64,000 nt of DNA from Gammaproteobacteria bacterium (GTDB lineage Bacteria; Pseudomonadota; Gammaproteobacteria; Ga0077536). Below, one piece after another: positions 58,740 through 60,119 of the stretch; position 1 is the first letter of the stretch; each line of letters opens with the position of its first letter. The DNA is taken from contig CAXXLL010000002.1 of NCBI GenBank assembly GCA_963662545.2, positions 1,312,001 to 1,376,000 of the forward strand, read 5' to 3'. The notes under the pieces are model-generated. The model did no database searches and was not told where the DNA came from. It saw only the letters and a list, made by a program, of their open reading frames with translations. The position numbers were made by a program, and so were the translations under genes.

Positions 58740-58847
58740 ATTCGACTTCGACGTGCAATCTTGCTCCCGACGGGAATAAAAAAATGTTCAAGACTCCGTT
58801 AAACGCCCCGCCACCTAACAAGTGACTGTGGTTTGAAGTCAATAGAA

Positions 58848-59798
58848 TTAGACTAGTTCGGGGTTCCAAGGGGTTCTGTTTTTGACCATGACATTGAGGA
58901 TGGTCAACAGTTTTCGCATGCAGGCGACGAGTGCGACTTTGGGTACTTTCCCCGCGGCGATTAATCGTTGGTAGGTGCGTTTAATTTTCGGATTGCACTG
59001 GATAGCGGACAGCGTTGCCATAAACAATACGGTCCGAATACGGTAACGTCCGCCGCGTATTTTTCGTTTACCTTTAAAGGCCTCACTTTCTTTGTTCATG
59101 GGCGCGACCCCGACCAGGGCTGCGATCTGTTTACGGTTAAGGTGGCCGAGTTCCGGTAGTTCGCTCAACAAGGTATAGGTGAGCACTTTGCCGACGCCTT
59201 TGGTGCTCATTAACACATCGCGTGTGTCGGACCACCCGGGGGATTTATCGATGAGTCGGTCGAGGCGCGTGTCGAGTTTGGCGATTTCAGCATCGAGGTA
59301 TTTCAGATGCCGTTGGATGGTGGTGCGCAGGGTGTCGGGCATGATCGCCAACCGATTTTTCTCCATGGTCGCCATTTCAAGGAGTTGGCTGCGTCGGACT
59401 AACAGGTCGCTGATTTGGCGTGTTTGTTGAGATTTAGGGGGTGTGGCGCGCGGCTTGAGTGCTTCAGCGAAGTGGGCAATGGCGGCGGCGTCCAGGGCGT
59501 CGGTTTTGGCCAATCGGCCGGTGGCTTGAGCGAATTTGCGCACGTGGGTTGGATTGGCGACGCTGACGGCCAACCCCGCCTGCTGTGCGGCACACACGAA
59601 ATCGCGCTCGAGACGCCCGGTGGCCTCAATGACCACCCGCGTGGGTTGAATGGACTTCAGTTGCTTTACCGCTGAGGTGATACCGGCTTTGGAATTGTCG
59701 ACACTGAATGCGGTACCTGACGGGCGCACGTAGAAATCCAGTTGCTGTTTGCCGGTGTCGACACCGACGTTAATTTCGTTGGGATTTGTAAGTTTCAT
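58848..59798 (-). CDS. IS110 family transposase/recombinase
   Basis: VGVDTGK, IEATG, KTDALDA (DEDD), GVG, GVAP...S, GGR..IR..LFMA. Confidence 0.96.
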
Positions 59799-60000
59799 AA
59801 GATAAGCTGACTCTGCCTTGCAATACGGGCTCGGGGCCCTAATGACTGTTCGAGTTGTTACTTAAGAGCTATGCACCGCTCACACTTGTTAGCGGTCTCT
59901 GCACGCAGGAACCGTGGATCAATCGAGCTGGTGCATAGAGGCCTTCAGCCGTTACTGAAGGTGGGCCCCAATTTACCCTTTCTTTGCAAAAACGAACCAT
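59799..60000 (-). ncRNA. Putative bridge/seek RNA of the IS110 element
   Basis: Stem CTATGCACC/GGTGCATAG encloses segments identical to the attC target; a second loop carries a segment identical to the element end. Confidence 0.75.
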
Positions 60001-60119
60001 ACAAATGGATCAACCGGACACGTTACAGCGCGCTTCTTTGGAGCAGCTACGCATTTTCGATCCAAAGAAGCGCACTGTAACGCGCCGGTTATCCTAGCGT
60101 TAGGTGGCAGTAACCGAAT

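What the first reader, a model, noticed from the sequence alone, without database searches (positions are those of the whole stretch)
58813..60105. IS110 element with a readable bridge RNA programmed against the resident attC site
Seen: the element splits attC at CTA[ACAA]ATGGATCAA. Its leader, read on the transposase strand, has a stem (CTATGCACC/GGTGCATAG) whose loop carries TTGATCCA (59915-59922) and CTAACAA (59886-59892), matching opposite strands on either side of the insertion point, separated by a small hairpin. A second loop carries ACAGTCA (59843-59849), identical to the element's far end (58823-58829), and TGCAAG, which can pair with the junction CTTGTA using one wobble. Circularisation would join TTGACT-18 bp-TATGGT, a junction promoter. 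Known: IS110 recombinases use such bispecific RNAs; described attC-targeting elements belong to the IS1111 group, whose non-coding region is downstream. Here it is upstream with an IS492-like TTGT core. Inference: an independent RNA-guided route to parasitise or rearrange integron arrays. Intact attC2 (60589-60604) is a perfect unused target; the other two attCs lack TGGATCAA.
Basis: partly seen in the sequence, partly recalled or inferred. Interest (0 to 1): 0.8.

Follow-up and report, generated by a model that had tools for sequence, protein, structure and literature searches.

The report
Bridge-RNA insertion sequence aimed at attC
A small jumping gene of the IS110 type sits inside an integron recombination site and carries, upstream of its recombinase gene, a folded guide RNA whose loops match that site and its own ends, so a second, separate branch of this family appears to home in on integron gene cassettes.

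Summary
A 1,183-bp element (58822-60004, recombinase on the minus strand) splits an attC site between its R'' box and L'' arm. A second, 100% identical copy lies in another attC on another contig, at the same position and with different outer flanks. The 316-aa protein is a full-length IS110-family DEDD recombinase, homologous to IS621 (E 1.7e-33). Its 202-nt upstream leader folds as a 5' stem-loop plus two stem/internal-loop/hairpin modules, the IS621 bridge-RNA layout.

Across 48 relatives, 18 of 36 pairs show compensatory change. The guides covary with the DNA:
- Donor guide equals the element end in 51 of 51 loci.
- The variable right-target-guide base matches the right junction in 52 of 52.
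- The left target guide tracks the left flank (0 of 10,000 permutations reach the observed match).

The crossover maps to the T of a CT-like core, not to TTGT. About half of the gammaproteobacterial relatives also sit in attC-like hairpins. Expression, circles and RNA dependence are not shown.

The verdict is a new member of a known kind: an IS110-group, IS492/IS621-branch bridge-RNA element aimed at attC, convergent with the IS1111-attC group. My searches found no paper describing this.

The parts
58822..60004 (-). Whole insertion sequence, 1,183 bp, counting one copy of the crossover T. An equally valid placement is 58821-60003.
   Evidence: The junctions were read. A 100% identical second copy lies at G000:C3:1918582-1919773.
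58848..59798 (-). Recombinase/transposase gene, 316 aa, ATG start, intact.
   Evidence: ORF. Pfam PF01548 (2.2e-22) and PF02371 (1.6e-15). NCBIfam NF033542 at 200.5 bits against a cut-off of 140. IS621 transposase in the PDB at E 1.7e-33 over residues 11-312. D14, E58, D100, D103 and S238 are invariant in 21 sequences.
59799..60003 (-). Left end (LE). This long upstream non-coding region encodes the predicted bridge RNA.
59996..60001 (-). TATGGT, the -10 half of the promoter that forms only when the ends are joined.
   Evidence: Sequence read. In 45 of 52 relatives, TTGAC-N16-18-hexamer (at least 4 of 6 matches to TATAAT) spans the RE-LE joint.
59942..59961 (-). 5' stem-loop of the RNA (CCTTCAG/CTGAAGG).
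   Evidence: Helix 2 of the consensus structure. 5 of its 7 pairs carry compensatory changes.
59869..59938 (-). Target-binding loop module: outer stem, internal loop and inner hairpin.
   Evidence: The outer stem has 12 pairs, 9 with compensatory changes.
59914..59923 (-). Left target guide ATTGATCCAC. Its TTGATCCA is identical to the top strand of the left target GTTGATCCA.
   Evidence: Sequence. Family-wide guide/flank match is 6.0 of 9 against 4.50 +/- 0.17 for permuted pairings, and 0 of 10,000 permutations reach the observed value.
59883..59892 (-). Right target guide CTAACA, core complement AG, and handshake bases TG.
   Evidence: CTAACAA is the reverse complement of TTGTTAG. The variable A/C base pairs with the right-junction T/G in 52 of 52 loci. 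The first handshake base pairs with donor position 7 in 51 of 52 loci, and it changes with that position in L098, L122 and L100.
59811..59854 (-). Donor-binding loop module.
   Evidence: Consensus helices 5 to 7.
59843..59849 (-). Left donor guide ACAGTCA, identical to the right end of the element.
   Evidence: The guide 7-mer equals the RE 7-mer in 51 of 51 loci, in four sequence variants. A fifth variant, ACAGTCG, is seen in L100.
59817..59822 (-). Probable right donor guide TGCAAG. It pairs with CTTGTA of the joined ends with one G-T wobble.
   Evidence: Read from the sequence only. GCAAG is nearly invariant in the family, so covariation says nothing for or against it.
58822..58847 (-). Right end (RE), 26 nt. 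It holds the -35 TTGACT (58837-58842) and the left donor sequence ACAGTCAC (58822-58829).
58810..58821 (+). Left remnant of the interrupted attC: the R'' box GCCACCTAAC plus AA.
   Evidence: Compared with the intact attC2. The reconstructed site folds at -46.7 kcal/mol, z = -12.
60005..60108 (+). Right remnant of the interrupted attC: L'', loop, L' and the R' box GTTAGGTGGC at 60099-60108.
60584..60699 (+). Intact attC2. It holds an unoccupied copy of the 16-nt target at 60589-60604.

Best explanation
This is an intact insertion sequence of the IS110 group, in the short-transposase branch that holds IS621 and IS492. It moves by RNA-guided recombination, and its guide RNA is set to the host's own integron attC sites.

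The mechanism is inferred by analogy with IS621, with each sequence requirement checked here.

1. The element excises as a circle.
2. Joining the right end (TTGACT) to the left end (TATGGT) 18 nt apart makes a promoter.
3. That promoter drives a leader RNA of about 180 nt made of a 5' stem-loop and two stem/internal-loop/hairpin modules.
4. [quoted passage not shown] The next bases (TG) can pair with the last bases of the element's right end after strand exchange.
5. In the second module, ACAGTCA and TGCAAG hold the joined ends of the element.
6. The DEDD/Ser recombinase exchanges strands at the T that target and donor share. This inserts the element between R'' and L'', antisense to the cassettes.

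Insertion separates the two halves of the attC hairpin. It should therefore weld the neighbouring cassettes together and block their excision by the integron integrase.

The gammaproteobacterial relatives keep the right guide on the near-invariant GTTA of attC, and their left guide changes with the host's attC family.
For: **Protein**
- The 316-aa ORF carries both IS110 domains and scores NF033542 at 200.5 bits.
- It aligns end to end with the IS621 transposase (E 1.7e-33) and with ISCro4 (E 1e-32), with the DEDD and Ser residues aligned.

**Two independent insertions**
- The two copies are 100% identical.
- Both lie in attC sites at CCTAACAA|ATGGATCAACCGGAC, and their outer flanks differ.

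**Targets in the genome**
- The 16-mer target occurs 47 times at up to 2 mismatches, against 1 for the reversed control. 15 of the 47 are perfect and unoccupied.
- The genome has two integron integrases above the TIGR02249 cut-off.

**RNA structure**
- 48 leaders give 36 consensus pairs, 18 with compensatory changes.
- 98.7% of cells are paired, against 33-46% when partners are slid. The covariation score is 0.341 against 0.155 for shuffles, with 0 of 500 shuffles as high.

**Guide-DNA covariation**
- Donor guide equals the RE end in 51 of 51 loci, in 4 variants.
- The variable right-target-guide base matches the right junction in 52 of 52 loci.
- The left target guide matches the left flank at a mean of 6.0 of 9, against 4.50 +/- 0.17 for permuted pairings. 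0 of 10,000 permutations reach the observed value. 9 of 43 loci score 8 or 9 of 9, against 0.82 expected.
- The handshake base pairs with donor position 7 as T:A in 49 loci and A:T in 2, of 52. It is A:T in L098 and L122 and C:G in L100.
- Distant relatives in Chloroflexota and Nitrospirota have both guides re-set to a different repeated target and share only CT between their junctions.

**Junction promoter**
- It is present in 45 of 52 relatives.

**attC nature of relatives' targets**
- 18 of 50 loci have a second target-like 16-mer within 1.5 kb, against 1 of 50 for the reversed control.
- 23 of 50 reconstructed sites fold as TAAC/GTTA-closed hairpins, against 35 of 296 control GTTA sites.
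Against: - Nothing here shows the RNA, the circle or movement. No RNA run holds the stretch, and the four runs laid were contigs without a circle junction or an empty site.
- The match of the left guide is imperfect in the family. 17 of 43 unique guides match their flank at 5 of 9 or fewer. These may be decayed copies, off-target insertions or a register error of mine.
- The base 5' of the right guide pairs with the flank in only 15 of 43 loci.
- The right donor guide is short (TGCAAG, with one wobble) and nearly invariant, so it is untested by covariation.
- Both guides of this element specify C at core position 1, whereas the occupied attC sites have T. The one attC in the genome with C (C3:1922379) is empty.
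- The target's own last two left bases (CA) also pair with the handshake bases. In IS621 that pairing hindered strand exchange (passages read).
- Only 2 copies exist despite 15 perfect free targets.
- Rfam has no family matching the leader.
Confidence: 0.85

Rival explanations
1. The element does target attC, but through the protein (or recognition of the attC hairpin) and not through RNA. On this view the leader matches are remnants or coincidence.
For: attC sites are structured, and other recombinases read them by shape. No RNA evidence was obtained. 17 of 43 left guides match their flank poorly.
Against: The target matches arise together in 5 of 200,000 shuffles, and the target and donor matches together in 0. 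Guides and DNA change together across relatives: 51 of 51, 52 of 52, and 0 of 10,000 permutations. Guides are fully re-set in distant relatives with a non-attC target. The guides sit in the internal loops of a covarying structure.
Confidence: 0.05
2. It is simply a member of the already described IS1111-attC group (ISPst6, ISPa21, ISKpn4, ISPa25).
For: It shares the target region (5' end of attC) and the antisense orientation reported for that group (passage of PMC3001079 read).
Against: - The long non-coding region is upstream (202 nt against 26 nt), the IS110-group arrangement. IS1111 elements carry it downstream (PMC11208160 and PMC11187229, passages).
- The protein is 316 aa. That is within the 315-330 aa given for the IS492/IS621/Piv branch and below the 330-350 aa given for IS1111 transposases (PMC11187229 passage).
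- The sub-terminal inverted repeat is only 3-6 bp.
- No tree with named IS1111-attC sequences could be made.
Confidence: 0.03
3. The element is a stranded, no longer mobile copy, and the two copies arose by duplication of a chromosome segment and not by transposition.
For: There are only 2 copies against 15 perfect free targets. No close copy was found in 80 related genomes, the best being 65% DNA identity, with 0 of 2 matches in the same genus.
Against: The outer flanks of the two copies are unrelated beyond the attC itself. The ORF, both promoter halves and all guides are intact and identical. In run X1 the element assembles as its own contig at depth 31.2, against 4.2 and 6.5 for the flanks. 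The tool warns that depth is not copy number, so this is a weak hint only.
Confidence: 0.07

Closest known systems
IS621 and its bridge RNA (IS110 group; Durrant et al. 2024, Hiraizumi et al. 2024)
   Same: - The recombinase fold family and catalytic residues are the same.
- The RNA is encoded in the long upstream end.
- The RNA has a 5' stem-loop plus a target loop and a donor loop. In each loop the 5' side reads like the top strand and the 3' side is complementary to it.
- The core is of the CT type.
- A handshake base pairs with donor position 7.
- A promoter is formed across the joined ends.

The paper sections and passages were read. The features were tested here.
   Different: - The protein is only distantly related. 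Identity was not computed; the phmmer E-value is 1.7e-33.
- The target is an integron attC site, not a REP sequence.
- The right target and right donor both start with TGT, so four bases look duplicated.
- Rfam has no model that matches the leader.
IS1111-attC group (ISPst6, ISPa21, ISKpn4, ISPa25) with seekRNA
   Same: Both are DEDD-transposase elements that insert site- and orientation-specifically near the 5' end of attC, antisense to the cassettes. Both use two short RNA segments that match opposite strands of the target (passages of PMC11187229 and PMC3001079).
   Different: - In the IS1111-attC group the guide RNA lies downstream of the transposase. Here it lies upstream.
- The transposase here is shorter.
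- The sub-terminal repeats here are 3-6 bp, against 7-17 bp for IS1111.
- The hosts here are marine Gammaproteobacteria with chromosomal arrays, not Pseudomonas or class 1 integrons.
- The exact insertion base of IS1111-attC elements could not be compared, because Tetu & Holmes 2008 and Post & Hall 2009 are not held.
IS492 of Pseudoalteromonas atlantica
   Same: From recall, not from any call: IS492 inserts site- and orientation-specifically at CTTGTTA, forms circles with a junction promoter, and has a transposase of about 318 aa. Here the family-wide junction reads C-TTGT-TA. The best plasmid-collection match is an unnamed Pseudoalteromonas IS110-family gene at 50.8% identity with the same end sequences and guides. 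PMC11187229 places IS492 and IS621 in one short-transposase branch.
   Different: IS492 itself was not available for comparison. Its known site (an eps gene, recalled) is not an attC. No paper found in my searches links IS492-like elements to integrons.
Group IIC-attC introns
   Same: Both are RNA-guided mobile elements that home to the 5' end of attC, antisense to the cassettes (PMC3001079 passage).
   Different: The introns are retroelements with a ribozyme and a reverse transcriptase. They share no homology or chemistry with this element.

Membership tests
IS110 family (DEDD transposases) | N-terminal DEDD/RuvC-like domain plus C-terminal Transposase_20 domain. | tested here: met
   PF01548 at 2.2e-22 and PF02371 at 1.6e-15. 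NF033542 at 200.5 bits against a cut-off of 140.
IS110 family (DEDD transposases) | Catalytic D, E, D, D and Ser residues. | tested here: met
   D14, E58, D100, D103 and S238 are invariant in 21 sequences. They are aligned with the matching IS621 motifs. The IS621 residue roles come from the passage read.
IS110 family (DEDD transposases) | No terminal inverted repeats. Site-specific insertion with only a short shared core at the junctions. | tested here: met
   The ends are ATGGTT... and ...ACAGTCAC. The junctions share T/TTGT.
IS110 group (as opposed to the IS1111 group) | The long non-coding end lies upstream of the recombinase and the downstream end is short. | tested here: met
   LE is 202 nt and RE is 26 nt. 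The criterion comes from PMC11208160 and PMC11187229.
IS110 group (as opposed to the IS1111 group) | Placement in a transposase tree with named references. | not tested
   No named IS1111 or IS492 sequences could be fetched. The support is indirect: the 316-aa length fits the IS492/IS621/Piv branch, and the protein is homologous to IS621 and ISCro4.
Bridge RNA (IS621 type) | [quoted passage not shown] | tested here: met
   Consensus structure on 48 leaders. 98.7% of cells are paired, 18 pairs are compensatory, and 0 of 500 shuffles are as high. In the first loop the left-guide positions have no majority base in the consensus, and the donor-loop guides are nearly invariant.
Bridge RNA (IS621 type) | The target loop pairs with opposite strands on the two sides of the core and covaries with the target. 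| tested here: met
   The caveat is that 17 of 43 left guides match at 5 of 9 or fewer.
Bridge RNA (IS621 type) | The donor loop pairs with the element's two ends. | tested here: inconclusive
   The left donor guide is met in 51 of 51 loci. The right donor guide is only TGCAAG with a wobble and never varies, so it is untested.
Bridge RNA (IS621 type) | The RNA is expressed from the joined ends and is bound by the recombinase. | not testable with these tools
   The promoter halves are present. No RNA run holds the stretch.
IS1111-attC group | Guide (seek) RNA in a long non-coding region downstream of the transposase. | tested here: not met
   Only 26 nt lie downstream. The guides lie upstream.
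IS1111-attC group | Sub-terminal inverted repeats of 7-17 bp. | tested here: not met
   The repeat here is TGGTT/AACCA, 5 bp. In relatives it is 3-6 bp. The range comes from the PMC11208160 passage.
IS1111-attC group | Insertion near the 5' end of attC, antisense to the cassettes. | tested here: met
   The insertion lies between R'' and L''. The transposase is on the minus strand and the cassette ORFs are on the plus strand. The criterion comes from PMC3001079.
Integron attC site (the target) | Imperfect hairpin closed by R'' (..TAAC) and R' (GTTA..), in arrays with short ORFs, in a genome that has an integron integrase. | tested here: met
   The reconstructed site folds at -46.7 kcal/mol, z = -12. 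The genome holds 47 related sites in arrays and two IntI above the TIGR02249 cut-off. The consensus RYYYAAC/GTTRRRY is recalled. IntegronFinder was not run.

The most novel reading that the evidence does not exclude
A whole subclade of IS492/IS621-branch IS110 elements in marine Gammaproteobacteria may be specialised on integron attC sites. The hosts seen here include Microbulbifer, Marinobacter, Marinobacterium, Amphritea, Vibrionaceae, Pseudoalteromonas and this genome. These elements hold the right target guide fixed on the near-universal GTTA of the R'' box. Their left guide drifts to follow each host's own L'' arm. This would be a second, independently evolved RNA-guided parasite of integrons beside the IS1111-attC group. 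It would act as a natural brake on cassette shuffling, and it would offer ready-made guides for editing cassette arrays.
Probability: 0.55. Interest if true: 0.62.

Novelty: new member of a known kind. Interest (0 to 1): 0.5.

Why it matters
Integron arrays are usually thought of as being reshuffled only by their own integrase. The known exceptions are IS1111-attC elements and group IIC-attC introns.

This finding adds a third lineage that reads the same spot of attC, and its guide code is fully legible in the sequence. It gives a natural series of matched guide/target pairs for the IS110 group: about 50 relatives with covarying left guides, five donor-end variants, and a covarying handshake base. 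That series is useful for rules of bridge-RNA design.

It also suggests a testable consequence. Each insertion should freeze two cassettes together.

It does not change the known mechanism.

Tried and rejected
**Searches and tests that gave nothing**
- Rfam found nothing in 58000-61500 at E up to 1.
- Four papers are not held: Tetu & Holmes 2008 and the three IS492 papers (Higgins 2009, Perkins-Balding 1999, Higgins 2007). Post & Hall 2009 was seen only as a reference. The exact IS1111-attC insertion base and the IS492 target are therefore not from a call. Supplements were not opened. The supplementary phylogeny and target logos of PMC11187229 may bear on the placement.
- Six literature searches found no paper that links an IS110-group, upstream-RNA element or IS492 to attC. 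A preprint on large IS110 elements has no mention of attC, integron or cassette. PMC9229058 reports IS110-family elements (ISSde13 and IS110-like, n = 5) inside Shewanella integron arrays but says none interrupted an attC.

**Tests that were too strict or too weak**
- The 11-nt inverted-repeat test for R''/R' across relatives was too strict. Only the two own copies stood out. A perfect 9-bp R''/R' scan of the genome likewise found only 14 hits.
- The base 5' of the right guide does not track the flank (15 of 43), so I dropped it from the guide.

**Searches for closer copies**
- The metagenome scan gave 8 loci, none closer than 66%.
- The 80 related genomes gave no close copy.
- Plasmid hit H77, fetched as a possible IS1111-group reference, could not be identified.

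**Sequencing runs**
- No RNA holder is listed.
- The four contig runs laid showed no joint across the element and no circle junction. A part without cover proves nothing.

- I did not build an attC covariance model, run a structure prediction or run complex prediction. None would have changed the verdict.
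Full report
**What is there**

Between 58822 and 60004 lies a 1,183-bp element with one ORF on the minus strand (59798 to 58848, 316 aa). 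On the transposase strand the left junction reads GGTTGATCCAT-TTGT-ATGGTTCG and the right junction reads CCACAGTCAC-TTGT-TAGGTGGCGGGG.

Taking the element out restores a sequence that matches the intact neighbour attC2 (60584-60699) over the junction region. The restored site folds into a 120-nt imperfect hairpin closed by GCCACCTAAC/GTTAGGTGGC, at -46.7 kcal/mol and z = -12.

**The protein**

- It carries DEDD_Tnp_IS110 and Transposase_20.
- It passes NCBI's IS110 model at 200.5 bits against a cut-off of 140.
- It aligns over residues 11-312 with the solved IS621 transposase (E 1.7e-33) and with ISCro4 (E 1e-32).
- D14, E58, D100, D103 and S238 are invariant among 21 relatives. They stand in the motifs whose catalytic role in IS621 is described in the passages I read from PMC11208158.

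**Copies and targets in the genome**

- The assembly (3 contigs, 5.58 Mb) has exactly two copies, identical over 1,192 nt.
- The second copy is on another contig, again inside an attC, at the same base and in the same orientation. The sequence outside the attC is unrelated.
- The uninterrupted 16-mer target occurs 47 times at up to 2 mismatches, against 1 for the reversed control. Fifteen copies are perfect, and one of these is attC2 in the window.
- Two integron integrases score above the TIGR02249 cut-off, at C2:996723 and C3:1527239. Both element copies lie in attC clusters far from them.
- One attC (C3:1922379) has C instead of T just before TTGT. That is what both guides actually specify, and it is empty.

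**The leader as an RNA**

The 202-nt leader folds better than all 200 shuffles (z = -3.9).

I collected 80 loci with relatives at 49-65% protein identity from species-representative genomes. I added eight loci from metagenomes and three from chromids in the plasmid collection.

Forty-eight non-identical leaders align cleanly. They give a consensus of a 5' stem-loop and two modules, each made of a stem, an internal loop and a hairpin.

| Measure | Observed | Control |
|---|---|---|
| Cells paired | 98.7% | 33-46% with partners slid |
| Pairs with compensatory change | 18 of 36 | 0 of 500 shuffles reach this |
| Covariation score | 0.341 | 0.155 (shuffles), about 0.06 (slid) |

This is the layout that PMC11208160 describes for the IS621 RNA (section read).

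**Guides**

In the first internal loop, the 5' side (ATTGATCCAC) repeats the top strand of the left target. The 3' side (CTAACA-AG-TG) is complementary to the core plus the right target and, beyond that, to the last bases of the element's right end.

In the second loop, ACAGTCA repeats the right end, and TGCAAG can pair with CTTGTA of the joined ends with one wobble.

In 200,000 shuffles of the leader the two target matches co-occur 5 times. All three matches co-occur never.

Across relatives:

- The donor 7-mer equals the right end in 51 of 51 loci, in four variants. A fifth variant is seen in L100.
- The variable A/C base of the right guide pairs with the T/G of the right junction in 52 of 52 loci.
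- The left guide matches its own flank at a mean of 6.0 of 9, against 4.50 +/- 0.17 for permuted pairings. 0 of 10,000 permutations are as high. 9 of 43 unique guides score 8 or 9 of 9, against 0.82 expected.
- Against this, 17 of 43 unique guides score 5 or fewer, and the base 5' of the right guide pairs in only 15 of 43 loci.
- The first base after the core complement pairs with donor position 7 in 51 of 52 loci, as T:A in 49 and A:T in 2. It changes with that position in L098 and L122 (A:T) and in L100 (C:G). The exceptions are L063 and L095. This is the handshake pair described for IS621.
- Relatives in Chloroflexota and Nitrospirota have both guides re-set to another repeated sequence (read by eye).

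**Where the strands cross**

- In the 9 loci whose right junction reads TGGT or CGGT, the left junction still reads TTGT. The left junction reads TTGT in all 53 loci examined. That base therefore travels with the right arms.
- The base before the first T is C in 52 of 52 right junctions, but C (39), T (8) or A (5) in left junctions. That base travels with the left arms.
- The distant relatives share only CT between their two junctions.

The crossover is therefore at that T. The core is of the CT type as in IS621, and the apparent TTGT duplication arises because the right donor (TGTATGG) and the right target (TGTTAGG) begin alike.

**Promoter**

TTGACT in the right end and TATGGT in the left end would be 18 nt apart in a circle. 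A TTGAC-N16-18-hexamer with at least 4 of 6 matches to TATAAT spans the joint in 45 of 52 relatives.

**Are the relatives in attC sites too?**

- Eighteen of 50 loci, including the two own copies, have another target-like 16-mer within 1.5 kb, mostly on the same strand. The reversed control gives 1 of 50.
- Twenty-three of 50 reconstructed empty sites (21 of 48 relatives) fold as hairpins closed by TAAC/GTTA with dG of -12 or lower. The rate is 35 of 296 for other GTTA sites in the same loci, some of which are probably real attC sites.
- The right flank begins TA after the core in the great majority of loci.
- A Salinivibrio relative sits in a sequence that resembles, from my memory of the Vibrio cholerae repeat, the 5' end of such a site.

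The attC habit therefore looks like a property of the gammaproteobacterial subclade. It is shown for about half of its members by these crude tests.

**Comparison with what is known**

- attC-targeting insertion sequences are described for the IS1111 group. Their guide RNA lies downstream, and they insert near the 5' end of attC, antisense to the cassettes (passages of PMC11187229, PMC11208160 and PMC3001079).
- The element here has the same target region and orientation. Its organisation is that of the IS110 group, its protein length is that given for the IS492/IS621/Piv branch, and its RNA is IS621-like.
- I could not fetch named IS1111-attC or IS492 sequences, so independence of origin is inferred and not shown by a tree.
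- Six full-text searches found no report of an IS110-group or IS492-like element aimed at attC.

**What is not shown**

- Transcription, RNA-protein binding, circles and transposition are not shown.
- No RNA run holds the stretch.
- The contigs of four runs show the element and its junctions, but no empty site and no circle junction.

**Verdict**

It is a new member of a known kind, and a possibly clade-wide attC habit gives it moderate interest.

Noticed in passing
window 58323-58459: A 137-bp insertion in a cassette gene splits it into ORFs 58072-58410 and 58383-58739, which share the peptide EVERVRISLSFRALFQKLE. The insertion is about 78 nt of new sequence flanked by a 59-nt direct repeat. 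Its 65-nt core (58388-58452) is 98-100% identical to 9 other places in the genome, where it overlaps the start of a 448-aa ORF of a multi-copy element. One contig of run X1 lacks the 137 bp, so the insertion is polymorphic.
   Followed up: partly
window 58814-60019, run X1: In run X1 the element assembles as its own 1,206-nt contig at depth 31.2. The contigs of the unique flanks have depths 4.2 and 6.5. The element contig stops 8 nt into the left attC remnant and 15 nt into the right one. This may mean more copies, all in like attC sites, in related strains. The tool warns that depth is not copy number.
   Followed up: no
window 61262-61290 and 61538-62140: A truncated attC begins like the others (CGTTAAACGCCCCGCCAC) and then diverges. 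It is followed by a 200-aa fragment of an rve_3 integrase-core ORF on the minus strand. The cassette cluster seems broken here by another element.
   Followed up: no
G000:C3:1922379-1922394: This is the only attC in the genome whose target reads TTGATCCA-CT-TGTTAG, a full match to both guides including the core C. It is unoccupied, whereas both insertions are in TT sites.
   Followed up: no
L069, L072, L073, L075, L079 (Dehalococcoidia genomes): Relatives at about 50% protein identity are inserted at one repeated sequence (CCGTTCGCC-CT-GAGC[T/C][T/C]GTC..., which continues GAAGG in L069, L072 and L073). Their guides are re-set to it. The host repeat itself was not identified.
   Followed up: no
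L043, L049, L050: In these three relatives the right flank after the core reads ATAG, ATGG or ATGC, like the start of a left end, instead of TA(G/T). They are possibly insertions next to a remnant of a related element, or tandem copies.
   Followed up: no
G000:C3:2722742, 2752397 and 2923042-2923859: Three further, more distant IS110-family genes (one of them split) are in the same genome. Their targets were not examined.
   Followed up: no
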